DNA of 61,238 bases, taken from Candidatus Omnitrophota bacterium. GTDB lineage: Bacteria > Omnitrophota > Gorgyraeia > Tantalellales > Tantalellaceae. The position numbers were made by a program, and so were the translations under genes. This document shows positions 1 through 24,000 of the stretch, piece by piece. The notes under the pieces were generated by a model. The model ran no database searches and had not been told where the DNA came from. It saw nothing but the letters and a program-made list of their open reading frames with translations. The stretch lies in assembly GCA_014728045.1 (NCBI GenBank), contig WJMH01000012.1, positions 1 through 61,238 on the forward strand. The letters are read 5' to 3'. Each line of letters begins with the position of its first letter. Position 1 is the first letter of the stretch.

Positions 1-16
1 GCATTACAGAAGAAGG

Positions 17-3000: not shown

Positions 3001-6000
3001 GGACCAGGAAAAGGCGCCTGAGGAAAAAGCCGGACCTGAGATAGCCGCGCCTTCTAAAGCGGAAGAAGAAGCCGCTGAAAAAGGCGAGCCAGAGGGTGCA
3101 GAATTCTCACACAGGACGGAAATGTTCATGGACCTTCTGGGGATAGACAGCCACTTAGCCGTATACAATATCATAGCACGTGAAGTGGAGGATGTTATCG
3201 CTTCCGGCAAGAAACCCGCGGACATACTTGACCTGGGACAGGCACGCGAAACTGCCAGGGAAATCAATCTTGAAGCGCAGAAGTTCCAGAGTCAGGTCAG
3301 TTCCGTGAACGCCGAGCTTACCATACTGGAAAGAAGCGGGCTTTCTACCCTCAAGAGCAGGATAAAGGAAAGGCTCAAGTTCGCACTGGGGCAGGTGAAC
3401 CCGAAGACCAGGAAAACAGTTACCGAGAAAATGATGGCGAGGCTGGAAGATGAGTCAGCCAGACCTACCGATACCGGCAGTCTGATAGCGGAACTCTTCC
3501 AGATGAGAGATGACTCGATAGAGCGGCTCGCGCAGCCTGTACTTTCGGCTCTGCGTGAGGGGAAGACGGTCGCCGAGAGGAATGCCGCGAAGATCATGGG
3601 TCTTCTGCAGACGGCAGAAGAGGATATGACGGCCGGCCACTACACCCGCGCCCGCCAGAAGGCTGACAGGGTGCTTGAACTTGATGCCGGTAACGAGAAC
3701 GCCCGGAACATTCTCGCGCGCATTAATCGTATCGAATCGGGTGAACCCGAGGAAGCTGGGAAGGAACAGGCCGATCGAGACCAGGCGAGGTCCGAGACGC
3801 TTATACAGCATAATGAAATAATGGCCGCCGCGGTCCGCCTTATAGGCAGGCTGAGGCATATTGAAATGTATCCTCCCGTAAGCCAGGAGGATATCATACA
3901 GGCCGAGGACGAGATAACCGAATACAGCATGAGCGAAGAGAGCCTCAGGGGCGCTTTGGATTCATTGACCAAGAAGCCTCTCTGGGAGGAGCTTCAGCAG
4001 ATCCTTGATAAGGTAAAGAAGATATACGAAGCCCAGGAAACCCGCCAGAAGAGCAAGGTGGAAGCGACAGCTGAAAAGGGCATAATCGAGATACGCGTGT
4101 GGCTGAAGGACTGGCGCAGGCAGATGGAGCAGATCGATAATGAGAATATCCCCGATGTGGAAAAACTCGAGGATATCATTCGCGTAAAGATGAAGGAGCT
4201 CAATTACAGGAAGAAGGAGCTTGAAGCGCAAATATCCGAAACGGAAAAACAGACCGGCCAGCCTCGCAGAACAACCCCGCAGCAGCTTGAAGAGATGCTT
4301 TACAGGGATTTCGAGTTCTTTGTCAAAGGTGACGGTGAAGTGGCCGGCATCAGACAGATAATCGCCAAGAAAGGCGCCTTCAAGGTCCTTGAGCACATGG
4401 ACAACTGGCATTCAAGGGTTATGAAGTCCGAGGAGTTCGAAAACAAGAGCGTCAAGTACATTGAAGATTTCATAAAAGAACAGCGCGAAGAGATGCACCG
4501 GATAATGAGAAGGTACGGTATTACCGAAGAGATCGTTCCCGAAGACGTTGAAGAACTAACGCGCATGTTCAATTTCTGCGCTATGCAGGCAACGGTCGAG
4601 GCATCCAAGAGAAGGAAACCCCAGCTTACCGAGACCCAGCAGCTCATCGCCCTGGAAGCGCAAAGGGAACACGACACTCGGGAGTTGCACAAAAAATCGC
4701 ACGTTAATATCAAGGCCGCCAGACCCGATCAGAACGACAGGACAAAGGAACTTATCGAGCGCATTAACAAGGGCCAGAGCATGGAAGATATCGCCGATGA
4801 TGCGATCTCGGTGATCGAGCAGGTCATAGCCGAGAACATGGAAGAGGAACCCTCCAGGTTAAAGGAGGAGTTCGCTTCAATGACGCAGCGCATGTACGAG
4901 GAGGCCCGTGCCCTGGAAATAGTTGGTGCGGTTGAGATAGCTTTCAGCAAGATCATGATGTCCGACCAGACCGAAAGGGAGGCCAGGAAGACCATGGTCG
5001 ATGGCTTGAAGCAACTGAGCGTGGTTTTTGATTCTTCGCCGGGTCTCACCAGGAGCGAGGAGTCCAGGATCAATGCCAGCAACGTGCAGAATATGGCTGA
5101 ACGTGTCCTGGAATCCGCTTTCCGTTCCAGGTTCAGGAAATTCACGAATCTTTATGCCAGCCAGAGAAAGGCTGTAAAGGACGTGATCATCAAGGAAACG
5201 ACCTCCAGTGACGGCAGGATCAGGAGCCGGATAGGCCAGATGCCGACATCTTCCGGTAAGACCATAGCCCTTTATACGGCCGCGTATATCATGGCCATAA
5301 GAGCTTTGAGCGAAGAGGGCAGGAGAAACAGAGAGGGTATACTGGTAACTTCCACCGAAGAATCCAAGGCGAAGGAGGACGCCGAAGAAGCGGCCAGAGT
5401 GCTGTCCGAACTCGGCATACAGGTGGGTTTCGTGGGCACCAGAACTGACGGACAGGTACAGGGATATCTCTTTGACAGAGCCACCGGCGATCTGGAGAAG
5501 GTCGAGAACGACAGCAGGGTATATTCCGAGGCGATGGTCGTTTACGGCACTATTGACAAGTTCGTTCACCGTTCACAGAACGAGAAAATGACACAGGACC
5601 CGAATGAGAGACATTTTATCAGCCGGAAATGGCGACTTCGCATGGATGAGGCTGACGTACCTCTTCTATATGACCTTTCAAACCCGTTCATAGTTTCCAG
5701 CACGCAGGGCGATCCAAGGCTTCTGAGGAGGATCGACCAGGTGGTAACAGAGCATATCGTGCTGCGTAAGCTGAGGGAAGAACTGGGTGTCGGCGCGGAG
5801 AGCTTCAACCTTGCGGCCATGCGCGATAAACTGGCCGAGAGAGATCACCACAGGTCCTACGGTGAGCTTACATCCGAAGAGAAAGCCGAGGTGGACGGCA
5901 TTATACGCAGTAATACGGATCTTTACAAGACGAATACCGACAAGAAGGCGGTGATCCTGAACGAAGACGGTTCCTACAGGCTCACGGAAAAGCTCGGTGA

Positions 6001-9000
6001 ACTGGGCATACCCAAGGACAAGATCAAGGCGAATTTAGCCTCTTACTGCGAACTGGCACAGACGGCGATCGCCGCGCACCTTTTTGACGAGAAATACACC
6101 CATTACATGGAAATGCCCGTTCAGGGAAAACAGGAAATAGTAATGCTGGACGAGGGTACCGGCCGCGTCAAGTTCGGAAGGCTTCCGTACCATCTCCAGG
6201 CCGCAATAGAGGCCAAGGAAGAATTCCCCGTCAGGCCGGAAGAGGATACCGACCTCATTTACCAGATAGACGGTATTGTCCGCGAAAAGATCCTTAACCA
6301 TCCGGGGCTTTACGAAAAGAAGGAGAACGAAAGGTTTGTCATGCTGAACTCCCGCGGTCTCGAGGTACTTCAGCAGGCACTGGTCGATTCGGGCAGGAAG
6401 ATCGACGAAGTCAAACAGGACATGTCCAAGTTCGAGGAGCTGGCCGAGAGGGCCCTGGCGGCGTCTCTTTTCTACGTGAAGGACAAGGATTACAGCGTAA
6501 TGAAGGTGAACGGCAAGGACGAGATCATACTGCTGGACGAGGGTACGGGTAAACCCATGTACGGCAGGAGGCTTTCGCATGGCCTTCACGCCGCTATAGA
6601 GGCCAAGGAAGGCCTTGAAGTTCGGCCCGAGGGCGTTGTCGTAGCATGGGGCACCTTGACGGGATTCCTCAAGCAACCTTTCATACATTCTTTCGGCGGT
6701 GTTACCGCGACAAGCGAGAAGGACGCCATGTGGCAGCTTCACCGCCTCAGGACGGTCGACATCCTGCAGCAACTCAGGGAAGAGCTCTCGATAAGGCAGT
6801 TCAATAAACCCTATTTTAACCTCAGCGACGAGGAAAGGTCCCAGATAGACAAGGCCGTGATAGAAAGCCGCAGGGAGGAAAAAGACCCGCAGATATATGC
6901 TACCCGCACGAGAAAGGTAAAGGCGGTCCTCAGGGTAGTTATGAGAGAACACAAGAACGAGCAGAAGAGGCCCATCCTGATAAAGGTCGCCAATGACCTC
7001 GAAGCCAGGGAGATGGCCGCTCTTATAAGGAACGGCCTCAGTGAGAACACCGGTAAAGATCTCCTCGAGGAAATGGCCCGGAAACAGTTCAATAAACATT
7101 ACAAAGACCTCAGCGAGGAAGAGAAGAACAAGATCAATAACATAGAGCTTATGACCGCGGCCACCTACGCGGACATCGACCAGATAAAGAAAAGAGCCGG
7201 TAAAGAAGGCCAGATCACCATAGTCACCAACCTCGGCGGACGCGGTATAGACATAAAACTTACCGCTGAATCCTCCAGGATAGGCGGACTTTTCGGCATA
7301 TCCACGTATTTTGACGAGCTGTCAGCTTCGGACATACAGTTCAGGGGCCGTGTCGGAAGGAACGGACGCCCCGGTGTATGGATGGGGTTCTGGTCTCTTG
7401 AAGACAGGGCTTTCACCAAATATGCGGAAGCTCATCCGGAAGGGGTCAAGGTGCTCAGGGATCTGCTCGATGCTGTGGAAAAGGACGAATCCAGGCCCAG
7501 CAAGCATATAGGGGGTGAACCCATAGTCAAACAGATCGTTGAAGAGATAAGGGAGTCGATCAAGAAAAGACATATCTATGCTAATCGCCAGCACCAGGAA
7601 CTTTCCGAATACATAGGGAAACTGAAGGTTTCTTTCTTCGAGAAACGCGAAGAAGCGGTGGAAATGTTGCGTCAGGTGGTTGACAGGATGCAGGTGGAGA
7701 AGCAGAAACTTGAGGATATCGACCGCAATATAATCGAACACGGGGAAGAGTTCATGGACCTGATCGGGGAACCGGCGCCCTCAAGGGACGCATCAGCTTC
7801 CCAGATAATCGAAAAAGTAATGATAGCCTGCGACGAGGATGAGGAAGTGGGCAGGAATATCACGGATCTGGCCGCCAAGGGGATCACATCCGCCGATCAC
7901 CTGATAAAGATCATGGGTAGAAGGGAGTCCTTGCTCGAGACCATAAGAGAGCTCGAGGTCGAACGCAAGAAGCTCATGTTCCCGATAGTCAAGATGGACG
8001 TCTCCTGGAAGAGATTTCTCGGGAAAGCCGGAAACATACAGAAGGACCTGGACAGGTTCCTGAGGCATTACGGATGGCGCCAGGCTCTCCTGCAGATAGA
8101 CCCGGTCGTTAACCGCGAAGCCATGGTCAAAGAAGCCTATGAATCGGAGTTCGGTGCTCCCCACAAAAGTTTGAGCTTTTTCCGGATCGCCGTTAGGGCG
8201 CTTCTGGCTATGGGAGCCCTTTTTACCACCACAATGTTCGCTCCGAATGTCATCGTCAGCTTTTTCGATATACTGGGATTGCCGGCGACTCCCGGGTATA
8301 TCCTGCTAATAGCTATCGGCGCTCTTATAGCCGTGAACCCGCGGATAGGCCTTTCGGTACTTACGATGACCGCTTTCTGGGCCATATTCAAAAGCCTTTT
8401 CAGGGTAATGGACATACAGTATCTGACGGTCAAGCTTACTTCCGACGCGTTCTCGCTATTATCGAATGATGCTTATCTTATTTTCCTGACCGGCCTGGCC
8501 GGGGTCGTATTTCTGGCGGTCACGATGATGATGCAGAGGAAATTCCTTAAACAGTTCCAGGAAATGGACAAGAGCCTCAGGAATTTTGCCAGGGCCTTCC
8601 ATGAAATAGACGGAGTGAGTTTTACGGGTTCAATGATCAAGTTCGTGTTCCAGCAGGTGCTCAACCTTGTCAATTACATCGCTCCCATGCTGGCGGGGCT
8701 TTGTCTTATAGTGACCGCGGCGTTTCCGCCTTTCATAGAAGGCGCTTTGGTAGTGGCTCCGGTGACCGTGGGTGTGGGCGCGGCAATTGGCGCTCTGGGC
8801 ATGTTGACCACGGGCGTGACCATACTCGTGAACTGGAAAAGGATAAAGGAAAGAGGAGTGCACCGCCCCAGTCTGGCAGAAAGGTATTTTACGGTCATAA
8901 TAGACAGCGTTCTGACGCTTTCCGCAGGTGTTTTCGTTTTCACGATGGCGACGCAGGTCAATCCTTTAACCTATATAGCCGGGCTTGCCGCGGCCGCGCT

Positions 9001-12000
9001 GCTGATGGTGACCGCGAGGAAGGTCATATCCAAGGCTTTCGGCACGCATGCTCTGCACTGGAAGACAATACGCATGGGGATCTATACCGCAATTCCCGTT
9101 ACATTGCTGATGCTCGGCGTTACCAAGGCCGTCGGCATGACATCCGCCCCCCTGACAACTGTCATGACGCTTGCTTCGGTTCCGTTCCTTTTGAGTTTGA
9201 CCGGATACCTCGTAGCTCAATGGTATTCGGCGAAGAGGCTTTCTCAGATAGAGTCCAAGATAACGGGTATTTCAAGGACCAGAAGCCTTGTGGCCACGAT
9301 CTTCGAACAGAATGTTCTTAACGTAAGGCAGTGGGCTCCGGGGCTGGGAGCTGTGGCCACAGTTACGCTTTCGGTATGGGGTCTGTTCAGCAAAAGCAGT
9401 CTTATTTCAGGGGTACCGATAACCGTCGGGGTTGTGCTCGGCCTTTATCTTGTGCTGAGAATAGCAAAGGCGATTTATAAGTACCAGTACGCCAACAGCA
9501 ATATCTCCGAGAAATCCATCAAGAGCCTGAGGCTCGCAAGGGATGTAATATCCCGCAACGAGATGATCCGGCTCAGAAGCAGTATCATCGCTTTCAAGAA
9601 GGAGCGCTTCAACACGGATAACCCGTATCTGCTGGCGATCAACAAATTATGGGATGCCTCGGAAGACAATTCGGTCCTCAGCAGGATAATGAACGAGATC
9701 ACGATACACGGTCCTCCGAGCGGCGGGAAATGGGATATATCTGATCTTAAACGCAGTATAGAGAATATCATATATTTCCGCAATACCGTGAACCTTCACG
9801 GCGAAGTCATGCAGAGGAACGAACATGGTGAACTTGCGGTGAACGCCTACCTGGCGCTTTTCAGCGAATTCAATCTCGTCAGGACATATCTTGATAAAGC
9901 TTATGAATCGGCGCGTGATCCGGAGAACTGGATGAAGGCGCTGAGGTATTCGTTCCTTTTTGCCATAGGTTTTCCGATGCTTACCGGCGGCGCGAAGGCC
10001 GCCCATGTCAAACGCACAGAAGCGGTCTATAAACATGAGCAGCAGCTCGAGGAGCAGAGGACCATGCAGCAGATGCGCCGTAACAGGCTCACGGAGCTGC
10101 AGAACATGGAATCGGAAATAGAGCGCATGCTTAATTTCATGCGCCGCAAGGCCCTGCAGGGTGATGTTGAACAGTTCGAAAAGACCGAGGAAAGATTAAA
10201 AGCAACGCTGGAACTGTACCGGTCCGGCAACGCTGAGCTGCTTACCGAACAGGAGAGAGGGGATATTAAGTCCAAATCCACCAATTATGAACTCCAGGCG
10301 CAAAGGCACAGAGCGCTTCTTGAAAAGGTGCTGGCCCAGAGAGAGGCATTTAAAAACGCGAGGAAGCAGGCCAGGCTCAAGGAGCTTGCCGACAGGATAG
10401 ACCAGATACTTGATAAGATGAACGATGCGGCCGAAGGCGCGGACAAGGATGCTTTCGACAGGTGGGCCGCGGAACTGGAGCATATGCTTGAACGCCTTGC
10501 GGAAAACCCGGATATAGGGAAGGATCACCGCCTCATTCTTGAGAACAGGAGACTTGCCGGGATATCCAGGTCGATACTGCAGGCAAGGTTAGATGCCAGG
10601 GAAAAGGAAGTCAAAAGGCTTGAAGAGTTGCTCAAACAGATAAATGCCGCCATCATAGATGCCCACAAGAACGTTTTCGACGAAAAGGTGAGTGAAATGA
10701 AGAAAGCTCTTGCCGAAACGGAACTTCTTGATGAAAGGACCAAGGACAGGTATTCAAGAAGCATAGTTAACGCAGAAGCTGCCATGAAAAGAAGGCTCGA
10801 CGCTCTTGAGAAGGCCAGGGACGAAAAAGAAAAGGCCCAGGTAACAGAGATAGAGTCGATACTTGCAAAGATGGAAGGATCCGCCAAGGCCGCCGACGTG
10901 GCTCTCTTCAACAAACTGAAACAGACGTTGGAGAAAGCCCTAGATTCGGCTGATATGGTCGATGATGTGTCGAAGACCGGTTACAGGGTAAGAGCCCACG
11001 AGGCTGGGGTGCTTTTGAAGGAAGTAAGGGACGCCATGGCGGCCTATCATGACAGGGTCATCAAGTTCGCCAGGACCGCACCGCAGTATGCTTTGGCCGA
11101 GAACGCAGAGAACACCGAGCAGGCCTGGGAAAAGTTCAGGGCCGACGCGGAGAAGATCAGAAGCGAGGCCCCCGGGGTCTATGACTCCGAACTGGTGGAT
11201 GCTTATTTCAGGCTCGGGGAGATACTCCTCCGGAGCGCCCTGAGCGACAGGGTGGATACAGCCGATGTCATAAAGGTCAGAGAGCTTCTTTCCCGCGCCA
11301 AAAAGAGCACCGAGGAGATCGACAGGATAAAGGAACTCATAGATACAATAGCCGAGGAAAAGACCCTGGATAACAGGCTCTTCATACAGCTTGTATTCGG
11401 GTATTCGCTTGGGGACAGGTTGCCGCGGTTCGCGGTGGGGGACGGTTCGGGCAGTACTTCGAGTGACCTGCCGGTAAGTGTGGATTTCAGCGGCTTCCCG
11501 CAGGTGCCGCTATCCACTGCAGACCGCATCCGCCTGGTCAATTCCTTCGAGTCCCAGCAGGACGCTTTGGGCAGATGGTGGATAATGATAAGCGACAATG
11601 GTACACAGAGCGATACCAGTGACGATATCTGGATAGCCGCCGATACATATAATGACATGATCCAAGATCTCTATCCGCAGATTCAGCAGCTCGCCACCGA
11701 AACAGGACATACTATAGATCCCTCATGGCCGGCTACGGTATTTATCGCCAATGCCGGCAATAACAGCGCTCCCGAATGGCAGAGGAACATACGTGAGTTG
11801 GTTAACTGGCTGATAATAGCCGAACAGGCCGGGATATATGAACATTCCGCCTCCGACATGATGGATAACATCATGGAGAACATGGACGATGTTAACGATT
11901 ACCTACGTGAGTACGGGGACGGGGAACTTACCCTCAGTGACGAGGAAGAACTAGGATTGCTCCTCTGGGTCTCTCAGGGGACGGCTGACGGGCATTCGGT

Positions 12001-15000
12001 TGACGAATTATTGTTCCATCCCAGGGAACTGGCCCGGCTGATGATGAATTTCTCCATATATGACAGTGACCACGGAGCAAGGGCGAAAGCCGTTGCAGCC
12101 GCCAAGAGGAAAGCCGAAAGCATGTGGAAGGCCGCAAGAAGCAGGAACCTTCTCATTACGGTAGAACGTCTCGTGGAGCTTAAGACCTCTCTTGCGGACG
12201 TGGACAGGATGTCCCATGAGATAGCGGAACTGGACGCCCGTATCAAGAAGGCCGGCCGGGAAGAGAAGATCATCCTCCAGCAGAGGAGGCTCCTTCTCGC
12301 CAGGCGCCTTGCGGCGGCCAGGAAGAAGTCGAGAATTGAACAGGTCCGTATCAAATGGGCCCTCGGCATCGATATGAACGCGGACCTTGTAAAACAGATG
12401 AACCTGCGCGAAGTGAGTGAGGCAGAACTTGTAAAAGCCCTTGAGCAGGTTTCGGGCGATTATTACTCCACGCGCCTTGAAGCCGCCAGACAATGGGTGG
12501 TGGAAGCCGGCCATTACGCCCCGTCTTTAGTAAGGGTGAGGGCCTCCAGCGGACTTATGGTCAACCTTCTGAGCGTTTTCGAGGAAAAACCGATAGATGA
12601 TATAGTTTCTCTAAGTCTGCTGGACTTTCAGGTCGATTATGATCATCTCCGCAATAAAGAGGATCAGATCGCGCAGAGGGAGGTCGAAACGGCTATAGCC
12701 GCTTTCCGTGACGAGGTCAGGGATATGGACAGCGAGATAAACAAACTTGCCGCTCATATAGAAGGTCTTGAGGCCGTTATAGAGAAGGACAGGGAGGTGC
12801 TCATAGAAGCCCGCGCGGCATACGATCGCATGATAAAGCTTTCCACTGAACAGCCGGCACTGATCGATCGCACGAGCGCCGTCCACATAGTAAAGAACCT
12901 GCAGCAGGCGGAGGACGCGCTAAGGTGGCACCAGCTGCAGCTGAGGATAGCAAGGGCTAAGTTCAGGATGTTCGGAAGGTTCGCCGAAAAGAAGGTGGCC
13001 GATCAGAGAAGAAGGGAAGCGGAGATAACTGACCTTGGCCAGCTTTTCTCAATGGCCCTGAGGAACGGCAGGATGAACCGCATATGGGCCAGGATAGCCA
13101 AAACCCGCGCTATCAAGGAAAAAGAAGCATCTGACAGCTGGTATATCCCCAAACTCATATTCAGCATGAAGCTTTTCAAGGGTTTCACTGACCTTGAATG
13201 GAGACAGGAACATGCCTCGGATAACGATATATTCGAGGATGCGATAGAGGAAGCCGATATCGGGATGAGCATGCGTGCCTGCCTGAGGTGGTATCTGTTT
13301 GACCTTGGCGGTGAGAACCGTGAACTTGCCACGGAATACGCCCTTAAATCGGCGATGCTGGAATCAAAGACCAAGGGCTCCGAGCTCATGGTAGAAATAG
13401 CCAATGCGGTTTCCCGCATAAAGAGAGCTCAGGAAGCCGTGGATATAAAGACTGAGGATGTCGGGTACAAGAAGCTCAGGATAGAGGCGATGGCCGACTC
13501 CGACGACAGACGTCGCCAGGAGTTCTATCTCATACAGCTGGGCAGAGACCTGGAAGGGGCCAGGAACGAGTTGCGTATGGCTTACGAAAACCTCAGGAAG
13601 GTCGTGGGTGCTACGCGCACCAGGATAAAAATAGACCGAAAGATGCTCGATGAGATGGACAGGCAGCTTGAGGAGTTCATGTCAAGCCATCCGGATATGT
13701 TCATAAGAGGTATTGACGGCAGATGGCAGGTGACTCCTTACGGTAAAAGAAGCATGGGTCAGCTGAAAAGAGAACTGCAGAGATCGCTGGATGAACTGGA
13801 AAGGCTTCACAGAAGGGAGAGGCTTTCCGGGCTCGACCAGATCAAGCTAAGGGCCATGATCGCCAATCTGAGGGAAGCGATCTCGGTGATGGACAAGCAT
13901 TTCCAGACCGGCAAGAGCGTGGAAAAACAGATGCCGGTCATACTCAGGACGCTTCACGGGGCCAGATTGTCATATATAAAGGACCAGACACCCAGGTGCA
14001 GCGCGGATATGGAAAGGCTCGAACAGTTCACCGTGGAACTTAAGAGGATCATCTCCGAGACGAAAGATGCGGCTACCGGCAAAGACGCCGAAAAGCTGCT
14101 CGGTGAGGTGCAGAAGCACCTGGCCAAGGCATATAAACGCGAGATCAACAAGATCTTCAGCAGGGCGCGCAGGTATAACATCCGGACCGAAGAAGAAAAG
14201 ATGCATCTAATCATAAAATATTCCCAGACGATACTCGATATCGATAATACCGACAGCCAGGCTGAGGGGTATCTCAAAAAGGCCCAGGACAGGATCGCCG
14301 AGATCGAAAAGATCTCCAGCCGGGACAGGGTCAAAAATGCTTTAAGGACAATGGAGGAGAGGCTCAAGGACACCCCTGGTTGGTTGACCTCCTATAGGGA
14401 GTATCTCGCTTATGCCGCGGAAGGGCTGAGTTCTTCCATCGAAGCAAGGAAGCTGGCCGAAAAGGCGGGCATGGACCTTGGTAAGACCAATGTGGATACC
14501 GTGGAAGCGCATCTTATCGACGCCATATGGAACATGGTCGCCAGAGTAGGTATTCCCGAAGGATATTATGAGGGCTGGGAGCCGGATGCACATTACGGAA
14601 AGGGCCATATGCCCACTCTTGAAATGGATAAGCCCTACTGCGCCGAATCCCGTGAACCTTCGAAGATCATCGAGCAGGTCTTCTCCGGTTACGAGCTGGA
14701 CGAAGTTATAGAATACAGGAGATTCCTGAAGGACCTCCGGGTCAAACTTAAACGTCTGCAAGGCTCCAACAGTGCCAAGGCAGGCGAACTGGTCAGGCAT
14801 ATCGATGCCTATATCTCGCTCTCGGAAGCCAAGATAAACGCGATGAGAGCAGAAGGCGCGCGGACCAGGACCGAATCGGAGATAAACGATATGATCGAGA
14901 ACCAGATAAGCGGCATGGAAAGCGACCTCTCTAGGAGGTTCGGCCTGTGGATACCACCGTTCCACGAATACCATACAACCCGCGGATGGATCCTGGAGTA

Positions 15001-18000
15001 TCTCAAGGTCTACCACAGGGCACAGAAGATAGAGATGCTCGGCCCGAACAGTAAGCAGCAGGATAAGATCGATGGATACAAGAAAGAGGCGAGAAAGAAA
15101 ATAGGCCAGAGGCTGGACGATCTCACGGTGGAAGACGATATTGAAGACCTCCTCGAGGATATATCGCTTGTACGCGCTCTTATGCGTTACGATATACAGC
15201 CCGGCAAGGCCAGGTTGTTCGAGATGCAGAGCCAGATAGCCCTGATAAAACTTATGAACGCCGAACTGGAGGAGATCCTGGAGGATGCTTCGACCGGAGA
15301 ATATGAAGAAGCCATAAAGAACGCGGATAAGGTCCTTACCGCTTGCGTGAGACCTGTCCAGGGTGGCAATAACACTTACACGCAGCTGAGAGATAAGCTG
15401 GTGGCGAACCAGACGAAGGTGCTTATAGCCTGTATGCAGTATAAGGCCGCCGAGTATAAAAAGATAACAGATGAAATCTCCAAGGCGGACAATGATGACG
15501 CGGAGGATTATCTTGATGAACTTGAAGAGGCCGAAGAAACTCTCCGCGGGCTTTACCGGATCGCCGCTTCCTTTGACGAAGCCGAAGGGATCACGCCGAT
15601 CACCCCCGACGGGAAAAAGGTGATAACCGCGATGACGGCGGCTTTGGCCATGGTCAGAAAAGAGCTTGATGCTGTCAACGGCGTAAGGTCGCTGGCCTTC
15701 CTGAAAAGAAGCGTATATCAGCTTAACCGTACGGTGGATTTCGAAAACGACGTGGATAAACTTACCGGTTACACTCGGACAACTGACCCGACCTGCCCGC
15801 TGAGCTCTACGCACCTGAGGCAGCTCAGGACCACCGAGAACGACCGCGTGAGCACGAGAATGCTCGATCGCATACTGGAATCGACCAGCCAGGCCCTCAA
15901 ACATGATAAGGACAATTTCCAGGCCGTTGAACTGCGCCGCAGCGTGCAGGATAAGTACACCATGGTACTCATGGGGCGGCTGAATGATTTGCAGAGAGAT
16001 ATAAAAAGAAGAATCGACAGGGGAAGATCCGCCACACGCGGCCAGATATCGGACGTAGAGGAAGTTGTGAACAGGATCCTCGATGTTAATTCCGACAGGC
16101 TTATCGGCCTGCTCAAACCCGGCGAGGAGAGCATTAACATGCTCAGGAAGATATCCGACAGGACCGGTGCGACGGTCCTTAGCTTCGAGCATCTGCCCGA
16201 GAGCGTGCAGATGACTGATGACGGGCGCAGGATATTCCAGATGCTTATCGACAGCTGCGAGAAGGCCGGCGGTAAGCATACCCCCCACAGGAAGATGATA
16301 ATAGAACTTATACAGCGCAGGTACCACCAGGAAACAAGAGAAGCTGTTTTCTGGGGAGGACCCTTGATACATGTCGATATAGGGATCAGTTCCAGCGGTA
16401 TGGGGCAGTTCTTCGGGAAAACGGCCACCACGCCCTGGAGCAACCTGGTGAATGTCGGGTTCACTAAGAACGGTCTGTTCTGGGTTACGACCCCGATACG
16501 CAAGATACCGATACTGGGAGATATTCTTGAACACATGCTGGGTCTGAAAGGATACATAGAGCATAGAAAACGGAGCATGGAAATGCACGGTGCCAAGTCC
16601 AAAGAACACCTCCAGCGCGCCGAGATGGAAGCAGTGAACCACTGGGTAGCCCTCTGGGGAGCCGTGAAACAGTACCAGTCAACGGACTCCGCCAGGGAGA
16701 AGTTAGCGGCCGAACTGGATGTGCTCGTTGCCGAAAGGGACCAGAAGAAGGAATATTTCTCTTTCAGGAGGAATTACACCGAACTTATGGATCTGGAAGG
16801 ACGCATAGCCAACAAGAGGCTTGAGCTATCACGCTGTGACGCCGACATGCGAGCTTTAGAGACGCTTCTGTATTCGCTCGGGGTCAATGACCCGAAGGAA
16901 TTCATCGCCGAGGACAGTGAGTACGCTAAAAAAGGTTTCGTGGACTCCAAGCTTGATGAAGTGTTCGATCTGTTCGGGGCGGGTTCCAAGGAAGCAGCAA
17001 GCGAATGGGGAATGAGGATGAAGATAAGGATCGCCCAGGACAAGGTGGCGGCGCGACTTCCCTCGGCAACGGGAGAGACCTCAAGCGTGATGCTCGAAGT
17101 CTCTTACGGCGAAGGCTACGCGGGCGAGGTACGCGACCAGTGGAAAACAAGCGTGCGTTTCGCAAGGGAAGAGACAGTTTCGGGAATAGTAGACGCGATA
17201 GGCGGGTATACGAGAGATTCCCGCAGGCACGCGCTGAAAGCTAAAGAACACGAACAGCAACTTGAGAGGCAAACGATGCTGCGCGAACTGGCCGAGCTCA
17301 ATGCGAGGTACTGGAGAGTCGTGGCCGATTACGAGCAGCTCGCGGAGAAATACAGGGTTGCCGAAAAAGCCTGTGAAGACGGCCGGAAAAGAAGGAAAGC
17401 CGAAGAGATCAGGCCGATGCAGCTCAGGGACCTGCAGGACCAGCGCGATCAGGCGAGGGCGAGGATGGAAAAGGCTCTGGCCGATATCAGGATGCTGGAA
17501 ATGGAGTTCAAGACAAGTTTTGGCAAGGAGATACCGGATGCGAGTTTTCTCAGGAACTTCGGGTCTGTTCTCGCGCCGCTGGCCATAGACAGTATAGTGC
17601 AGAAAGCGAAAGCTGCCTCCAGCGATGTGGATTTCTCAAGGGATGAAAAGGTACGCGCACTTGAGGAATACATCATAAGCAGCCGCCAGCGACAGTCCAG
17701 CGTACTGCATTACCTCTCGAGCATAAAACTGGGTGTATGCTTCCAGGACAGCGATTTCACGGCAAAACCGGTTGACGCGGTAATGCCCACGCTTACTTTC
17801 GTGCTTTACGGTTCCAACTGGGAAGCAAGGCGCGATAAACAGCGCAACGAACATATATACAACATTTACCAGCTCCGCAGGAGGCAGTCCGAACTTCCCG
17901 TGGAATACCGGGTAAGGCTCATAGAACTACAGGCAGCCGCTGAAATGCTGAAACTGGAGTTTGAGAACCTTTCCGGAGCGAGCAAGACCATACAGGAAGA

Positions 18001-21000
18001 ATACGACCAGGTGCTCAACGATTACAGGAGGCGCCGCATTGATTTGGATACGATGAAGGCGCGCCTGGAGAAGATAGACAGGAACGAATATATAGAAAGC
18101 CTCGCCTCATTCCTTTCCGCGTACGAGAAGTTCTCGATGCTGACCAGACAGCTCGGCATGGAGATGCCGCCTCTGACCGAACTGGGGGCCGAGAAGGATG
18201 CCGGAAAAGGCGAAGAGGTCAAAGCCGGGGAAAAGACCGAAGAATCAGGAACCGTACCGTCTGAAATAGAACAAACATATACGGCCGTGAACATACCTTC
18301 CAGGGAGGAGTTCGGCAAGGGCCTTAAGAGGAGGACCGGCTGGAGATGGGGTGATTACTGGGACAGTTACAGCGCAAGGCACGACAACCAGCAGATAGAG
18401 GCCTTTCTCGAGAAATACGGCCTCGAGCCCGCCGAGACCAACAAGGCCGGGTTCTTCGCCTTTCGCGAGGGTCTTATCGAGCTGAGCTCCAGGAGAGGAC
18501 ACCTGTTCGGCAGGGGAGGGACGCTTTACCGGTATCTGGTTGACCAGAAGAAGATGTCCGAGGAAGACGCTCTCAGGAAGCTCGCCTCGCTCAGGGATAT
18601 ATACTGGTCCAGGTTCTGGCAGGTCCAGGACCAGATCGTCAAACCTTTCCTCGAGAAAAAACTCGGGTACGAGCCCGACACGGATAACGATTTCGCCATA
18701 CTGATGGCATGGACCGATTACGCGATGGGTGCCGGCAGGGATGAAGGCGCCATGATAGAATATCTGGAGACAGAGCTTAGCGATGACAACCTAGTTACCA
18801 AGATACTCAAGAACTTCTTCCGCGTTCAGATGATGCAGGCGCTGGAGAACGATTATGACAGGGTCCTTGACAGGGTGAGAGAGGCTTCCTTCCATATGAC
18901 GGCCGACCAGCTTCAGGGTGAGGTCGAGACGCGCGGCGTGGATATCGATTCTTTCAGGGGACTTATGGCCGGTTTCGAAAAAGAGGTCGGAGAGTTCCTT
19001 GGGGAGGAAATAGATTATAACAACGAAGCCGACAGGTGGATACTGCATCGCGTGGCCATACTCGCATTAAGAGCAGGCGGCAGGGACGATTTCCGCGGGG
19101 ACCTCGCACTTATGAACATGGTCAAGAAGGTATCCGGTGAATTTTTCAATTTCGACAAGATCACCGCCGAGTCAGCCATGAGGATGCCCGGTTCGGACAC
19201 GCTGAGAAGGATATCCGACAGGATACACGAACTTAAGGCAGCCGGGGAGGATACTACGGCCCTGGAAGTTGTCTTCAACGTGCACATGAAGGCCTTGATC
19301 AGGGGCAAGAAGATCAATACCTGCTATGATACTGTCAGATGGATCAGGCGTGAAACGGACAATACCGCCATGTGGCTCCGAGAAAGGGATCTCACTCTGG
19401 CCGATGCGATAAAGAAAAAGAAAACGGACCAGGATTTTTATGTTCCGATGCTCGTCGTCTACATAAATCAGGCCACCTCTGATCGCGACCCCATGATAAC
19501 GAGCGTAGAGGACCTCCTCAAGGAGGAGAACAGACCAGTTCTTGAAAGGGTCATGAGGCTTTATTACGGGGACCTCAATTTCATACTTACCAGATTCAGG
19601 ACGGACGCCGAGAACGAGAAAAAGGCGATACAGGCCTCGCTGGCCGGGGACCTTTCCGACGCGCAGAGGACTAAGCTCGAAAAAAGGCTCAAAGAGCTCG
19701 AGGATTACCTTTCGACCTATGATACCAATAATCCCTTCCTCGTCGAAGCCTCGAAGAAATGGGTCAGGTTCTACCGAGAGAACTTCAAGGATTCGGCCGG
19801 GTTCAATAACTTCCTGGACAAACAGTATAAACCGCTGATGGCCCAGGAAAGCGTGAAGAAATTCCTGAGCGACGTCGCCGGGGTCAAAGAGGTCGACCGC
19901 TTGATGAGCGAGGATATGATGATATACGGCGGGTACCTGGCGATCATTCTCGAGAAACACAAGATAGATGCCAATGACGAAAAGGCCGTCATAAACTTTT
20001 GCGACCTCGCGCTCCATTTCTTTCAAAAGAACAGTTCCCTGAGGGAGTTCAAGATCGGCGAAGGTAAAGAGCAGATCAAGTATTTCATAGGCTTAGGCGA
20101 ACTTATGGGTACACTGGATTCGGTCGCCCGCAGGTCCAACAGGTCGCTTACCGACATACTCAAGGACGATGACCTTAAGGTGAAAATAACGGAACTGCTC
20201 AGCAAATACAGGTTCGAATACGTTGACTTCCCCAGACAGATAGCGCTGACCGAGGGGCTGATCAAGGGCAGTGTCCCGGAAGGCAAGGTCGTAATGGTCA
20301 CAGCGCCTATCGTGGACGGTAACTTCAAAAAGATAGGCGAATCCATCTCCGTAAAGGACAGGGACAACAAGAACCTGGTCACTTTCGCCAGGGTAAAGGA
20401 ACATGATAACCTGCCCGATGATTATGCGAAAAGCGTGCAGAGAAGGGAAGTGCTGGTATACCGCAGGGACGCGGTATATCCGCAAGAGATGTTCCGCCTG
20501 GTCAAGGATACCGATATTTTCACTCTGGAAAGCCTGGTGGGCGCGGTAAAGATAGGCACCATAAGCACAGAGGCCGTCAGGGATGAGGACGGGACCGTGG
20601 TGGATACCCTTCTGGTGAAGAAGTATCTTGCCGGTTATACGGACGGACTGGGCAACAGCGTTGTCAAGATCAACAAGAAGGGATACGGTAGGACGATCTA
20701 TGAAGAGAAGATAAAAGGGGAAAAGGTCCAGAAGATACACTACCAGTACCACGATAACGGTAGCCTCAAGAGCGTGGAGTATGAGAACGTGCTTAACGCC
20801 CCTGACCCGTACAGGGATCCCCAGGGGTATTTTCTCGCTGAACAGCACGGCCTGATCAAGCGCATCGAGTATGCCCCCTCGGATGACATATTCGTGCCGG
20901 GCCTTCTTGAGAAGATAATTTATGATGACGGGACAGTGGCTTATTACACTGACGGACATATTAAAAGGATCACTTTCAGTGAGCCCCACCGGCCTGATAA

Positions 21001-24000
21001 AAAGACGTATCCGCTGGATTATGATTTCGCGGCCCAGCACGGTCTTGTCGCGGAAATGGTCTTTGACGGAACCTCCGAAAACAGGTCCGTCCTGACCCGG
21101 TATGCCGACGGTACCGAAAGAAGGTATATTACCGCGGAGAACCTTGATGAGGCCAGGGAAGAGCGTCGGCAGAGCGTACGGGAAGATGATATGGACAACA
21201 TCAGACCCGGCAACCTCGGCGAGATAAACGTAGGCAAGAATGCGCATATCTTCAAAGGCCCCGGAGATGTAAGAGAGAAGGCTGCTGAGATGCGCAAAGC
21301 GGATTTCAAAAAGTATCTGGTCAGAACCATCGGGGACGAAGGCAGATCATACTGGACGGCGATAAACGCGTTGATGGACAAGATAGAATCCGATCTGGAC
21401 GAGGATTCCTATACTGAAGAAAAGAGGCAAAAGACCGAAGATGCGATCGCCTCACTTGAGGATATTAACCAGGTGCTGGACGATCCGCTTCTTGAGGATT
21501 ACCTTGACGTTCTGAGGGATTTCCACTTTGCCAAGCTGCACGGCGGAGTAAAACGCGTTGTCTATGAAGCAACACAGGAAAAAGTATCTCGTCCGCTGGT
21601 CATTGAATACACCGATGGGACCAGGGCCGCTTTCGTTTACAAGGTCGACGCTGAAGAACTTACGGGTATAGAGAGAAATATATTCTCAAAAGAGAAGAAC
21701 TGTTACCTTAAGATCCTTACCGAAAAAGGCAAGGCCCCGGTAAGGTATATCTACATCAGCAAGAGCAGGATCGCCCTCAAAGACGATTGTCTCAAGTATG
21801 TCGGGTATGAGACGCCCCTCATTGACAGTCGTTTCAGCAGGCTTCACGGCGGCGTGTCCGCGATTATCTATACCGGTGAAAGCAAAAAAGGCGGAAGGAT
21901 ACTCCTCAAACATTATGCCGACGGCAGCTACGAGGAATACAATTACGAGCACAAGATGTTCGGCGCTTATACCAAGACCCTCTATGAAAGGTCAGCGAGC
22001 ACTATCCGAAAGAAGGTCTTCACTTATGACGCCAAGGACAGGCTTATAGAATTCACCGACCACAATGGGATCACGGACAGGTATTATTACGAGCCAGGTT
22101 TTATCTTCGCCAATCGCGGCCAGAGCGGGAACACTCTGGCGATAGAGGTCGATATAGCGGGCGTGCCCGTAAAGAACGGAGCCGTTCTGGTCTTTAAGAA
22201 CGCTAAGATTACAAGCAGAAAGGAACTTGCCGAAGCAGGTGAGGCTGATTTCGCCTTTTTCTTCAACAAGGAGATAGAAAAGCTCGCCGCCACCGGGCAG
22301 CTGAACAGGATACTCAGTGACCCTGATATGGCTTATGACGCAAGCATCTGGAATAAGACCCGTGACGGTTCGGCTCTTCTGGAAAGGACCGTATGGGAAG
22401 AGGACGTTATAGGGACTTTCGCCACTCTCATGTCCGAGTCAAGGTTCAACGATACCTTTGAGCGCATGGTAGGCATATGGGAAGCTTCCATGCTGAGGGA
22501 CGGGGCGAGGACGCTCCAGTACAAGGCTGGTCATCAGAAGATCGATACGCATAAGCTTTACGCCGACAGGATATACGCCGAACTGAAGGAATTGAAGTCG
22601 CAGATCGAACAGGTCCGCAGCGGAGAGAAGGAAATGGACCATTTCCAGATGGAAACCTGGCAGAGGCTGATAGCGATGAAGTTCAGGGCCTGGGAAAGAC
22701 TGGCATACAGGGAACTGGTGGTCGAGGAAAGAAGCCCTGAAAAATGGATGAACAGGCGAACGGGCGCCAGCTGGTTCAGGAACGTCGTTCTCTCTTTCAG
22801 CAGGCGCAACGACCTGGATATTCTTTTCAAGGAAGTCACCGGCGTATCCGCGGAGAACATCACACCCGTTGAAAAAGTCTCCGTGAGAGGAAAGCTGCCG
22901 GTGGCTGAAGAGATCAATACGAACCGGGAGATCACCCTTGCTCTTACCAGCGAGGAAAAGACCGTTGTCGTGGATACCGGAGCGATGGGAATGAAGGACC
23001 TTTCCGATTCGACTTTATCTTTCCTCGTTAATACCAAGGAATCGTTGTGGCCTGCCATAACCATATACGCTGTTGACGGGGAAGGCCGGGAGAAGGTCCT
23101 GAGAGTCCCCGCCGAATCGGTCAAATACGAAGAGTACAGGAAATACCAGAGGGTTGAGTTCACTCCCTCCTCGAGGGATCTGAGTAATTATACCGAAGAA
23201 GAGGATTTCGACACTTCGGACGTTGTTTCGGTAAGGATCGTTTTCAGGAATACCAGCACAACTCCCGCTAATCTGGGGGTCAGGGACATCATGCTCGAGC
23301 GTAGCACTTCTCTGGCCGATACGGTCAAGGTGACCGAAACCGTGACCGTTGCTGAAGATCAGTGGATGTCCGCTTATGACATGGACGGCAGTATGTACAT
23401 CGATCTCAGCCGGGAAGGCGTGCCGAGTGATCTGGAAGGCAGGTTAATCAGGGTACGCGCAAAACTGCCCGCCACTGTCGCAGGGCCGGGCAGCAGAGTT
23501 ACCGTTTCTCTGATCGACGAGCAGACCAGGGCAAAGAGCGAAAAAGCGACAGTCGATGATGAAGGTTATGTTACCGTAGAGATAGAAGCCCTTTCCAAAG
23601 CCGATTTCGATTCCACTAAAATACTTATGCTCAGGGTGGAATCACCTATAGCCGAACAGGGCATGGAATTCACCGTCTGGCACAAGATAGCCGCAGCGTC
23701 GTTCGCGCTGGCCATAGCGTTGGCTTATTATTTGAAAAGGAACCACGCCAAGCTGGTCGAATGGCTGCGTAACCGTAAGATAAAGGGCCTCGGTAAGACC
23801 GTCGTAAGTCATGCGGACCTCAATAAATACATCAGCGAGAACATGCCGGAAGAGATCCGGAACGCAAAGAACATCTACGAGAGAAGGGAACAGCTCAAAA
23901 AGCTTTGCCCGGAACCATTTACAAGTGAGGATTATCCAGACATGGAGGCCGGTCTTGTGGAGATCCCCGGCCTTTATAACCAGACGGGCGTAAAGGCGCA

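What the first reader, a model, noticed from the sequence alone, without database searches (positions are those of the whole stretch)
11267..18157. Possible single-chain TolC: six outer-membrane-efflux half-repeats in one polypeptide
Seen: six segments with the OEP pattern (entry helix, beta-strand, loop, beta-strand, two long helices, terminal Gly), arranged 3+3 around a ~900-aa helical/TPR-like spacer (13610-16230). Established: a TolC channel is a homotrimer, each protomer has two such repeats, and together they give six repeats and a 12-stranded barrel. Inference: protein A encodes a complete pseudo-trimeric channel in cis, flanked by inner-membrane anchors, a SecA-like motor and a GT2 synthase. 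That would be an envelope-spanning export machine in one gene. Repeats 1 and 4 are the weakest calls.
Basis: partly seen in the sequence, partly recalled or inferred. Interest (0 to 1): 0.88.

Follow-up and report, generated by a model that had tools for sequence, protein, structure and literature searches.

The report
TolC-like repeats inside a giant protein
A stretch of an 11,467-residue membrane protein from an uncultured Omnitrophota bacterium looks like several copies of the building block of the TolC outer-membrane exit channel strung in one chain, which has not been reported before, but only one copy is solidly supported and a closed single-chain channel is unproven.

Summary
The region (nt 11267-18157) is aa 3751-6047 of one 11,467-aa ORF (nt 17-34420). 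This is a SecA-domain, multi-TM giant protein of Candidatus Omnitrophota; its only relatives are three Omnitrophota MAG fragments.

Each has entry helices, a 40-60-aa non-helical stretch, a 55-70-aa helix, a 34-50-aa helix, and a terminal Gly conserved in all orthologs. R1 is atypical.

Homology to the outer-membrane efflux protein family (Pfam OEP, PF02321):
- Robust only for R5: 22.2 bits against a cut-off of 22, reproduced in two orthologs and with an independent HMM.
- Suggestive for R3, weak for R2 and R4, absent for R1 and R6.
- No control window matched OEP (0 of 113).

A low-confidence AlphaFold model (pLDDT 52) still returned only outer-membrane-factor channels as its top 35 PDB matches. 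It placed strands exactly where the sequence pattern predicts in R5 and R6.

Not shown:
- that the six segments are homologous to each other;
- six β-hairpins;
- a closed 12-stranded barrel;
- periplasmic location of the region (the positive-inside rule argues the other way);
- any GT2 domain.

If true, it is a new variant of a known fold.

The parts
17..34420 (+). ORF A, 11,467 aa: giant multi-TM, SecA-domain protein that contains the finding. There is no in-frame stop in the 16 nt upstream, so the true start could lie outside the window.
   Evidence: 66% identical over aa 377-7855 to an ORF of a Candidatus Omnitrophota MAG. pN 0.20 against pS 0.76.
5213..7270 (+). SecA-like ATPase module (aa 1733-2418): DEAD, SecA preprotein cross-linking domain, SecA P-loop.
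   Evidence: Pfam: SecA_PP_bind 2.8e-20, P-loop_SecA 2.5e-13, DEAD 1.7e-3. SecA_DEAD 1.4e-5 in single windows.
8180..9463 (+). First transmembrane cluster (aa 2722-3149), about 12 hydrophobic helices. Loop charges give N-in and C-in.
   Evidence: hydropathy and loop K/R counts
9953..10009 (+). Weakly hydrophobic conserved segment FLFAIGFPMLTGGAKAAHV (aa 3313-3331). It is a candidate 13th TM helix that would be needed to put the downstream region in the periplasm.
   Evidence: mean Kyte-Doolittle 1.22. Conserved in P0001. It is also the best control hit to the OMF β-region.
11267..12367 (+). R1 (aa 3751-4117), atypical. It has a helix, a candidate amphipathic hairpin (3786-3830, nt 11372-11506), about 190 aa of α/β-looking insert, then a helical hairpin 4019-4116 (nt 12071-12364). 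The terminal Gly is not conserved.
   Evidence: sequence reading; helices in the AF2 model; no OEP signal; an ortholog indel falls in the candidate hairpin loop
12368..12976 (+). R2 (aa 4118-4320): entry helices, 45 unmodelled residues with an amphipathic β pattern, a 70-aa helix, a 50-aa helix, and a conserved terminal Gly.
   Evidence: AF2 DSSP (helix pLDDT 74-89). Pfam OEP 10.3 bits, E 0.59, in register, in the ortholog only.
12977..13612 (+). R3 (aa 4321-4532): same layout, with a conserved terminal Gly.
   Evidence: Pfam OEP 14.4 bits, E 0.034, in register in the ortholog. Own OMF HMM 7.0-7.6 bits in sliding windows, but only 3.6 with exact limits against 2.9 for the reversed sequence. 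An ortholog indel falls in the S1-S2 loop.
13613..16273 (+). Spacer (aa 4533-5419), 887 aa, mostly helical by eye, of unknown fold. It is less conserved than the repeats.
   Evidence: No Pfam hit above cut-off: NAD_binding_10 19.9 bits against 27.2, Fis1_TPR_C E 0.055. No PDB sequence match. 61% identity and pN 0.25.
16274..16912 (+). R4 (aa 5420-5632): entry helix, 58 unmodelled residues (PLIHVDIGISSSG...WSNLVNVGF), helices of 13+51 aa and 34 aa, and a conserved Gly at 5622.
   Evidence: AF2 DSSP. No Pfam OEP hit. Weak in-register hhalign match to R5 (105 columns, score 21). Own HMM 1.4-3.7 bits.
16913..17524 (+). R5 (aa 5633-5836), the best-supported OEP-type repeat. Strands at 5689-5697 and 5709-5717 (nt 17081-17167), a 61-aa helix, a 36-aa helix, and a terminal Gly.
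   Evidence: Pfam OEP 22.2 bits, E 1.4e-4, on aa 5733-5834 (profile positions 80-185 of 187). Ortholog 18.2 bits. Own HMM 15-19 bits in P0002 and 6.6-9.4 in the window; 0 of 300 shuffles reach the native score. AF2 strands, helix pLDDT 74-91.
17525..18157 (+). R6 (aa 5837-6047): segmented entry helices, strands at 5904-5909 and 5926-5931 (nt 17726-17809), helices of 21+43 aa and 9+23 aa, and a conserved terminal Gly.
   Evidence: AF2 DSSP (β region pLDDT 31-37). No OEP sequence signal. 74% and 38% identity to the orthologs.
26840..33214 (+). Second transmembrane cluster (aa 8942-11066), at least 12 hydrophobic helices separated by soluble loops. No GT2 or other Pfam domain.

Best explanation
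Between its two transmembrane clusters, this giant SecA-type Omnitrophota protein carries a tandem array of TolC/outer-membrane-factor-type (OEP) structural repeats. There are five regular repeats (R2-R6) and one irregular one (R1), split 3+3 by an 887-aa insertion.

**Proposed working (inferred, not shown)**
- Each repeat contributes one amphipathic β-hairpin and one long antiparallel helix pair.
- Side by side, the repeats build a TolC-like duct, with a β-barrel in the outer membrane and an α-barrel in the periplasm, from a single chain rather than from three two-repeat protomers.
- The simplest closed geometry is six hairpins giving 12 strands.
- The spacer sits at a repeat junction, the level of TolC's equatorial domain (TolC anatomy from my own knowledge, not a tool result), so it could bulge outward without breaking the duct.
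- The chain is tethered to the inner membrane on both sides. On its cytoplasmic N-terminal side it carries a SecA-like ATPase, which may drive export of the chain itself or of a substrate through the duct.

**What is shown**
- OEP-type sequence signal in R5, with weaker signal in R3 and R2.
- OMF-like helix lengths in all the repeats.
- OMF-only top structural matches.
- Purifying selection on the region.
For: - **Pfam, R5.** PF02321 is the top family for R5 in the window (22.2 bits, E 1.4e-4, cut-off 22) and in the ortholog (18.2 bits).
- **Pfam, R3 and R2.** The orthologs hit the same profile region, ending at the repeat-terminal Gly (14.4 and 10.3 bits).
- **Controls.** 0 of 113 control windows from A, B, C and the ortholog hit OEP at E<=1, and OEP ties for the family hit by most windows.
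- **Independent HMM.** An HMM built from 14 proteobacterial OMFs ranks R5 (three orthologs) and R3 (two) as the top five loci among 692 windows. Shuffled and reversed R5 never reach the native score.
- **AlphaFold.** The model shows a 55-70-aa helix followed by a 34-50-aa helix in R2-R6, and about 57+36 aa in R1. It places strands on the predicted amphipathic stretches of R5 and R6.
- **Foldseek against PDB.** Ranks 1-35 are all OMF channels (OprN, TOprJ, CmeC, VceC, TolC, SilC, OprM, MtrE, CusC), with probability 0.8-1.0 for most and 310-460 aligned columns.
- **Indels.** The only two A-versus-ortholog indels inside the repeats lie in predicted S1-S2 loops. The large P0002 insertions lie in the R5 S1-S2 loop.
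- **Constraint.** pN is 0.14-0.21 in the repeats against 0.25 in the spacer, with pS about 0.73.
Against: - Only R5 is statistically solid. In the window's own sequence R2, R3, R4, R6 and R1 give no Pfam OEP hit.
- R3's score with my own HMM is matched by its reversed sequence.
- NCBIfam TolC models, PDB phmmer/hmmsearch and hhalign against a 14-sequence OMF alignment are all non-significant.
- The repeats are not detectably similar to each other.
- The AlphaFold β regions have pLDDT 20-40. There are no strands in R2-R4, and pTM is 0.31.
- Foldseek E-values are only 1.7e-3 to 0.1, with TM-scores of 0.15-0.23.
- R1 has about 190 extra residues between its candidate hairpin and its helices.
- There is no signal peptide. 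Loop charges put the chain after TM12 in the cytoplasm.
- No adaptor or transporter partner domains are found in the window.
Confidence: 0.45

Rival explanations
1. This is a generic antiparallel coiled-coil hairpin array that is not inserted in the outer membrane. It would be a cytoplasmic or periplasmic scaffold or spacer of the giant protein. The OEP signal in R5 and the OMF structural matches would then reflect only the shared long helical-hairpin geometry and heptad composition.
For: - The same segments also hit unrelated coiled-coil families at similar E-values (TACC_C, HIP1_clath_bdg, DUF4618, EmrA hairpin).
- A profile built from the repeats themselves finds only keratin and tektin in the PDB.
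- No similarity between the repeats rises above control windows.
- The β regions have very low pLDDT.
- The positive-inside rule puts the region in the cytoplasm, and there is no signal peptide.
- DeepTMHMM surveys of Omnitrophota giants reported no credible β-barrels (10.64898/2026.06.07.730766).
Against: - 113 control windows from the same helix-rich proteins never hit OEP.
- R5 hits OEP in three orthologs down to 38% identity, always in register.
- Shuffled and reversed R5 do not score.
- The top 35 Foldseek hits are OMFs only, ahead of SMC, cohesin and MSP-1 by about 100-fold in E-value.
- Every repeat has a 40-60-aa non-helical stretch with alternating hydrophobic residues at the same position, and the ortholog indels concentrate there.
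Confidence: 0.27
2. The OEP-type repeats are real, but they do not form a self-contained single-chain 12-stranded channel. Only some repeats (for example R3-R6, or five hairpins) line a pore. Alternatively each triplet is a half-channel that pairs with a second copy of the protein or with a separate canonical OMF.
For: - R1 is irregular, lacks a conserved terminal Gly and has no OEP signal.
- The 887-aa spacer cleanly separates two triplets of similar size.
- Per-repeat best hhalign matches do not alternate cleanly between OMF repeat 1 and repeat 2. R3 and R5 match repeat 1; R1, R2 and R4 match repeat 2; R6 matches neither.
- AlphaFold gave no confident inter-repeat packing (pTM 0.31).
Against: - The count of six, which is exactly the number of repeats in a TolC trimer, is economically explained by closure in cis.
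- All six segments are under similar constraint (65-76% identity).
- There is no evidence for or against oligomerisation.
Confidence: 0.2
3. These are periplasmic adaptor (HlyD/EmrA membrane-fusion-protein) type α-hairpins that dock onto a separate outer-membrane factor, rather than the channel itself.
For: R2 hits the coiled-coil hairpin part of TIGR00998 EmrA/EmrK at E 0.0018 (17.3 bits against a cut-off of 390.8).
Against: - No HlyD, lipoyl or β-barrel adaptor domains were found by Pfam in any window.
- Foldseek returns OMFs, not adaptors.
- The helix pairs are unequal (about 60 aa and about 36 aa), as in the H3/H4 helix pair of OMFs, not the equal arms of adaptor hairpins.
Confidence: 0.04

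Closest known systems
TolC / OprM / CusC outer-membrane factors (Pfam OEP PF02321; TC 1.B.17)
   Same: - The repeat layout: entry helix, β-hairpin, long down-helix, shorter up-helix, terminal Gly.
- A Pfam OEP match for R5, with sub-threshold in-register matches for R3 and R2.
- Helix lengths that fit a roughly 100 Å α-barrel.
- Solved OMFs are the only top structural neighbours of the model.
   Different: - Known OMFs are 400-500-aa secreted proteins or lipoproteins with exactly two repeats. They trimerise into a multi-chain barrel with four strands per chain (PMC8277102; 10.1101/268029).
- Here up to six repeats lie in one chain, internal to an 11,467-aa protein, split by an 887-aa insert.
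- There is no signal peptide and no adjacent adaptor or transporter genes.
- Sequence similarity is at the detection limit.
SecA-domain giant proteins of Omnitrophota (West-Roberts et al. 2023, bioRxiv 10.1101/2023.11.21.568195; the 'PF07517 SecA DEAD-like' architecture group in 10.64898/2026.06.07.730766)
   Same: - More than 10,000 aa, with many TM helices.
- Divergent SecA DEAD and preprotein-binding domains without the SecA wing or scaffold.
- Omnitrophota origin.
- Mostly unannotatable sequence, and neighbouring giant genes that carry sugar-metabolism domains.
   Different: - Neither paper mentions TolC, OEP or any outer-membrane channel module.
- This particular region has relatives in only two 50%-identity clusters out of 1.84 billion representatives.
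Single-chain outer-membrane β-barrels and one-polypeptide trans-envelope proteins in general
   Same: The idea of one polypeptide supplying a whole barrel, and of a protein anchored in the inner membrane that reaches the outer membrane. This is a resemblance from general knowledge only.
   Different: Those barrels are not of the OMF α/β-barrel type. No OMF-type barrel made by a single chain turned up in the two papers checked or in my literature searches.

Membership tests
Outer-membrane factor / OEP family (PF02321, TolC-like) | Sequence match to the OEP profile at or above Pfam's gathering score (22 bits) for each repeat | tested here: inconclusive
   - R5: 22.2 bits when scanned alone; 21.5, 19.3 and 18.2 in larger pieces; 18.2 in the ortholog.
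- R3: 14.4 bits and R2: 10.3 bits, in the ortholog only.
- R1, R4, R6: none.
- 0 of 113 control windows hit.
- NCBIfam TolC models: no hit.
Outer-membrane factor / OEP family (PF02321, TolC-like) | Each repeat has two membrane β-strands followed by a long down-helix and a shorter up-helix | tested here: inconclusive
   The helix pairs are present in all six segments. Strands were modelled only in R5 and R6, at pLDDT 31-58. The β regions of R2-R4 were unmodelled, at pLDDT 20-32.
Outer-membrane factor / OEP family (PF02321, TolC-like) | Three-dimensional similarity to solved OMF structures | tested here: inconclusive
   Foldseek ranks 1-35 are all OMFs, with probability up to 1.00. However, E-values are 1.7e-3 to 0.12, target-normalised TM-scores 0.15-0.23 and rmsd above 25 Å, from a model with mean pLDDT 51.7.
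Outer-membrane factor / OEP family (PF02321, TolC-like) | Protomer of about 400-500 aa with exactly two repeats that homotrimerises | tested here: not met
   Five to six repeat-like segments lie in one 11,467-aa chain, arranged 3+3 around an 887-aa insert. This is why I call it a variant and not a member.
Outer-membrane factor / OEP family (PF02321, TolC-like) | Delivery to the periplasm (N-terminal signal peptide or lipobox) | tested here: not met
   There is no N-terminal hydrophobic segment on A (none above threshold in aa 1-2700). The region follows about 12 TM helices whose loop charges predict a cytoplasmic C-side. A weak 13th segment (3313-3331) could reverse this. The topology is unresolved.
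Outer-membrane factor / OEP family (PF02321, TolC-like) | Closed 12-stranded β-barrel continuous with a 12-helix α-barrel | not testable with these tools
   The spacer-deleted six-repeat construct was modelled (collected), but confidence is too low and no coordinates are returned.
Outer-membrane factor / OEP family (PF02321, TolC-like) | Genomic association with a periplasmic adaptor and an inner-membrane RND, ABC or MFS transporter | tested here: not met
   No HlyD, RND or ABC-transporter Pfam domains were found in ORFs A, B or C. The only motor-like module is the SecA-like ATPase in the same chain.
SecA-domain giant proteins of Omnitrophota | More than 10,000 aa, numerous TM helices, divergent SecA DEAD and preprotein-binding domains, Omnitrophota genome | tested here: met
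   - 11,467 aa.
- At least 24 hydrophobic helices.
- SecA_PP_bind 2.8e-20 and P-loop_SecA 2.5e-13.
- The ortholog contig is titled Candidatus Omnitrophota bacterium, and the relatives carry the same name.

The most novel reading that the evidence does not exclude
A complete TolC-type exit duct (12 strands, 12 helices) is encoded by six tandem repeats of a single polypeptide. The same chain is anchored in the inner membrane on both sides and carries a SecA-like ATPase. That would be a one-gene, envelope-spanning conduit, through which this predatory-lineage bacterium could thread the rest of the giant protein or export a substrate.
Probability: 0.28. Interest if true: 0.9.

Novelty: new variant of a known kind. 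Interest (0 to 1): 0.7.

Why it matters
**For channel biology.** In the review, the barrel survey and the literature searches I checked, every described outer-membrane factor is a trimer of two-repeat protomers. A natural single-chain version would show that the TolC barrel can be built in cis. It would give a ready-made asymmetric scaffold for studying channel gating and assembly, because each of the six repeats could be mutated separately.

**For Omnitrophota.** It would be the first concrete suggestion of how a giant, inner-membrane-anchored, SecA-bearing protein reaches or crosses the outer membrane. Both papers on these proteins leave that question open.

**If the rival is right.** The region is just one more coiled-coil stretch in a giant protein, and of little interest.

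Tried and rejected
**Searches for relatives**
- The search for homologous proteins with the whole region and with the first triplet found nothing. The 8,000-candidate word filter missed even the 65%-identical P0001.
- A third search, seeded with TolC, CusC and MdtP to collect diverse OMFs, listed only TolC sequences about 90% identical and was wasted.
- Metagenome scans (two), one genome scan and a viral scan found nothing. The second genome scan found the one Omnitrophota ortholog.

**Sequence comparisons that were non-significant**
- Self-BLAST and phmmer between repeats and against TolC.
- phmmer and hmmsearch against PDB sequences with single triplets, with the R5R6 ortholog profile, and with a MAFFT profile of nine repeats. 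The last found only keratins and tektins.
- NCBIfam.
- hhalign against 3- and 14-sequence OMF alignments: all probabilities below 5%, with R2-R5 in the top 5% of windows alongside two control loci.
- hhalign of the R5 and R6 profiles against all windows: the other repeats do not stand out.

**Other attempts**
- A β-amphipathic moment scan was not discriminating.
- I rejected paralogue-enriched alignments for AlphaFold, because MAFFT's register changed with the set of rows.
- The ortholog sequence beyond P0001 is not accepted by structure prediction.

**Claims checked and not supported**
- The GT2 claim was checked against Pfam in large and small pieces and not found.
- The spacer is not a recognisable TPR or other domain.

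Full report
**What is at the coordinates**

The window holds three consecutive giant ORFs on the + strand:
- A: nt 17-34420, 11,467 aa.
- B: nt 34756-54225, 6,489 aa.
- C: starts near nt 54421 and runs off the end.

The finding (nt 11267-18157) is aa 3751-6047 of A.

Pfam finds a SecA-like module in A (DEAD, SecA_PP_bind 2.8e-20, P-loop_SecA 2.5e-13) at aa 1733-2418, and TPRs near aa 380. Hydropathy shows two TM clusters, at aa 2722-3149 and 8942-11066. Nothing else in A reaches a Pfam cut-off, and in particular no GT2 does.

This is the architecture described for SecA-domain giant proteins of Omnitrophota (10.1101/2023.11.21.568195; 10.64898/2026.06.07.730766).

**Origin and relatives**

An exhaustive HMMER search of 1.84 billion representative proteins with aa 5400-6060 found only two relatives:
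- P0001: a 5,115-aa fragment, 65% identical, covering A 400-5551.
- P0002: a 1,054-aa fragment, 38% identical, covering A 5580-6624.

Both are 'hypothetical protein, Candidatus Omnitrophota bacterium'. A genome scan then recovered a 22-kb piece of a Candidatus Omnitrophota MAG contig. Its ORF 'O' is 99.8% identical to P0001 and 66% identical to A over aa 377-7855.

The region is under purifying selection. pN is 0.14-0.21 in the repeats and 0.25 in the spacer, with pS about 0.73, which is saturated. It is therefore real coding sequence, but the family is tiny. That limits every profile and structure method used below.

**The pattern**

I delimit the following (aa):
- R1: 3751-4117
- R2: 4118-4320
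- R3: 4321-4532
- spacer: 4533-5419
- R4: 5420-5632
- R5: 5633-5836
- R6: 5837-6047

An AlphaFold2 model was made of the spacer-deleted fusion, aa 4000-4534 plus 5418-6049 (1,167 aa, 5 alignment rows). It had mean pLDDT 51.7 and pTM 0.31.

Its secondary structure is nevertheless regular. Each of R2-R6 has, in order:
- entry helix(es);
- 40-60 non-helical residues;
- a 55-70-aa helix (in some repeats with one break);
- a 34-50-aa helix ending at a Gly.

That Gly is conserved in all orthologs for R2-R6.

An unequal helix pair of about 60 and about 36 residues, preceded by an entry helix of about 30 residues, matches the H2/H3/H4 helices of an outer-membrane-factor (OMF) repeat. That comparison rests on my own knowledge of TolC, not on a tool result.

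Strands were modelled only in two repeats:
- R5: SSVMLEVSY and WKTSVRFAR.
- R6: KLGVCF and LTFVLY.

These are exactly the alternating hydrophobic/polar stretches visible in the sequence, but they were modelled at low confidence.

The only two indels between A and O inside the repeats lie in the predicted S1-S2 loops of R1 and R3. P0002's large insertions lie in the R5 S1-S2 loop. Exposed loops would be expected to behave this way.

R1 is irregular:
- Its candidate hairpin (3786-3830) is separated from its helix pair (4019-4116) by about 190 residues.
- Its terminal Gly is not conserved.

**Is it OEP?**

Scanned as a 2,801-aa piece, the region gives no Pfam hit at all. Scanned repeat by repeat, OEP (PF02321) appears as follows:

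| Repeat | Sequence | Bits | E-value | Note |
|---|---|---|---|---|
| R5 | window | 22.2 | 1.4e-4 | cut-off 22; profile positions 80-185 of 187 |
| R5 | O | 18.2 | 0.0023 | in register |
| R3 | O | 14.4 | 0.034 | in register |
| R2 | O | 10.3 | 0.59 | in register |

All four alignments end at the repeat-terminal Gly.

As a control, I scanned 125 windows singly: the six repeats from A and from O, plus 113 control windows of 210 aa from the rest of A, B, C and O. OEP matched exactly four windows at E<=1, which are the four listed above, so 0 of 113 controls matched. OEP tied with SecA_PP_bind as the family hit by most windows.

I then built an independent HMM from TolC, CusC, MdtP and 11 plasmid-borne OMFs. 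It ranked these as the top five loci among 692 sliding windows:

| Locus | Bits |
|---|---|
| P0002 R5 | 18.7 |
| A R5 | 9.4 |
| O R3 | 7.6 |
| A R3 | 7.0 |
| O R5 | 4.8 |

With exact repeat limits, R5 stays clear of shuffled and reversed controls. R3 does not: it scores 3.6 against 2.9 for its reversed sequence.

The negative or non-significant tests were:
- NCBIfam TolC models.
- PDB sequence searches.
- hhalign against 3- and 14-sequence OMF alignments (all probabilities below 5%).
- Every comparison between the repeats themselves.

In short, R5 is OEP-like beyond reasonable doubt for a remote homologue. R3 is suggestive, R2 and R4 are weak, and R1 and R6 have no sequence support.

**Structure comparison**

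Foldseek of the low-confidence model against 350,542 PDB chains gave outer-membrane factors, and nothing else, in ranks 1-35: OprN, TOprJ1, CmeC, VceC, TolC, SilC, ST50, OprM, MtrE and CusC. These hits had 310-460 aligned columns and probability mostly 0.8-1.0.

The scores are weak, though: E-values run from 1.7e-3 to 0.12, TM-scores are 0.15-0.23 and rmsd exceeds 25 Å. The first non-OMF hits (MSP-1, cohesin, SMC) have E-values at or above 0.27.

The alignment given to AlphaFold contained no OMF sequence, so this result is independent of the Pfam evidence. The tool does not say which repeats were aligned. R5-R6 is the likeliest, because only those repeats had strands.

**Topology, the main weakness**

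A has no signal peptide. The first TM cluster reads as about 12 helices with alternating K/R-rich and short neutral loops. That pattern puts both ends, and hence the following 5,800 residues, in the cytoplasm.

A weakly hydrophobic, conserved segment at 3313-3331 could be a 13th helix that reverses this. Another candidate lies at 7885-7903. Both published surveys state that TM-based localisation of these giants is unreliable. I could not resolve the question.

**Interpretation**

The best reading is a tandem array of OMF-type repeats that forms a TolC-like duct from one chain. The spacer would sit at a repeat junction, at the equatorial level, and the SecA-like ATPase and TM bundles would supply the inner-membrane end.

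The count of six equals the repeat count of a TolC trimer, so closure in cis is the economical geometry. It is an inference, not a result. My estimates are:
- about 0.8 that R5 is a true OEP-fold repeat;
- about 0.55 that at least five of the segments are;
- about 0.3 that they form a complete single-chain 12-stranded channel.

The rivals are a plain coiled-coil hairpin array (0.27), real OEP repeats that assemble in some other way (0.20), and adaptor-type hairpins (0.04).

**Novelty**

Reviews and a survey of solved barrels describe OMFs only as multi-chain barrels with four strands per chain (PMC8277102; 10.1101/268029). Neither paper on Omnitrophota giant proteins mentions TolC or OEP, and one reports no credible β-barrel calls. 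If the reading is correct, this is a new architectural variant of a known fold in a new context.

**Limits**

- There are only three orthologous sequences.
- There is one low-confidence model, with no coordinates returned.

Noticed in passing
window 34756-36330 and 54421-55990: ORFs B and C each start with a hydrophobic N-terminal anchor or signal-like segment. This is followed by a roughly 520-aa paralogous module (32% identity, E 5e-87) with no Pfam match, containing the motif (I/V)(N/H)IQDAH.
   Followed up: partly
window 50257-51531 (ORF B aa 5168-5592): A pyruvate phosphate dikinase-type ATP-binding domain (PPDK_N, 3.4e-11) and a PEP-utilising mobile domain (1.1e-8) are embedded in the 6,489-aa ORF B.
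   Followed up: no
window 59101-60696 (ORF C aa ~1561-2092): A complete phosphoglucomutase/phosphomannomutase (domains I-IV, E 1.8e-19 to 5.3e-8) lies inside the third giant ORF, which runs off the window. Sugar-phosphate metabolism is fused into a giant protein.
   Followed up: no
window 18158-19888 (ORF A aa 6048-6624): The roughly 570 aa directly after R6 are about as conserved between A and the distant ortholog P0002 as the repeats (42% identity over aa 5580-6624). They have many invariant W, G, D and R residues (for example TGWRWxDxWD, NKAGFxAFREGL, DNDFxxxMAWTDYxMGxGR). There is no Pfam or PDB sequence match. This is possibly a functional domain attached to the repeat array.
   Followed up: partly
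window 11504-12046 (ORF A aa 3830-4010): About 180 aa of alternating β- and α-looking sequence (RWWIMISDNG, DIWIAADTY, ATVFIANAGN, LGLLLWVSQG) are inserted within R1. It looks like a small globular domain, with no Pfam or PDB hit.
   Followed up: partly
window 1-16: There is no in-frame stop codon upstream of the ATG at nt 17, so ORF A may begin outside the window. The known orthologous sequences do not reach this part of the protein.
   Followed up: no
whole window; dip at 8001-10000: There is a strong purine excess on the coding strand (AT skew +0.1 to +0.3, GC skew about +0.1) across all three giant ORFs. AT skew falls to -0.03 at nt 8001-10000, where the first TM cluster lies.
   Followed up: no
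window 23669-23725 (ORF A aa 7885-7903): An isolated hydrophobic segment, FTVWHKIAAASFALAIALA, lies in the long stretch between the two TM clusters. If it spans the membrane, it changes the predicted side of everything downstream.
   Followed up: no
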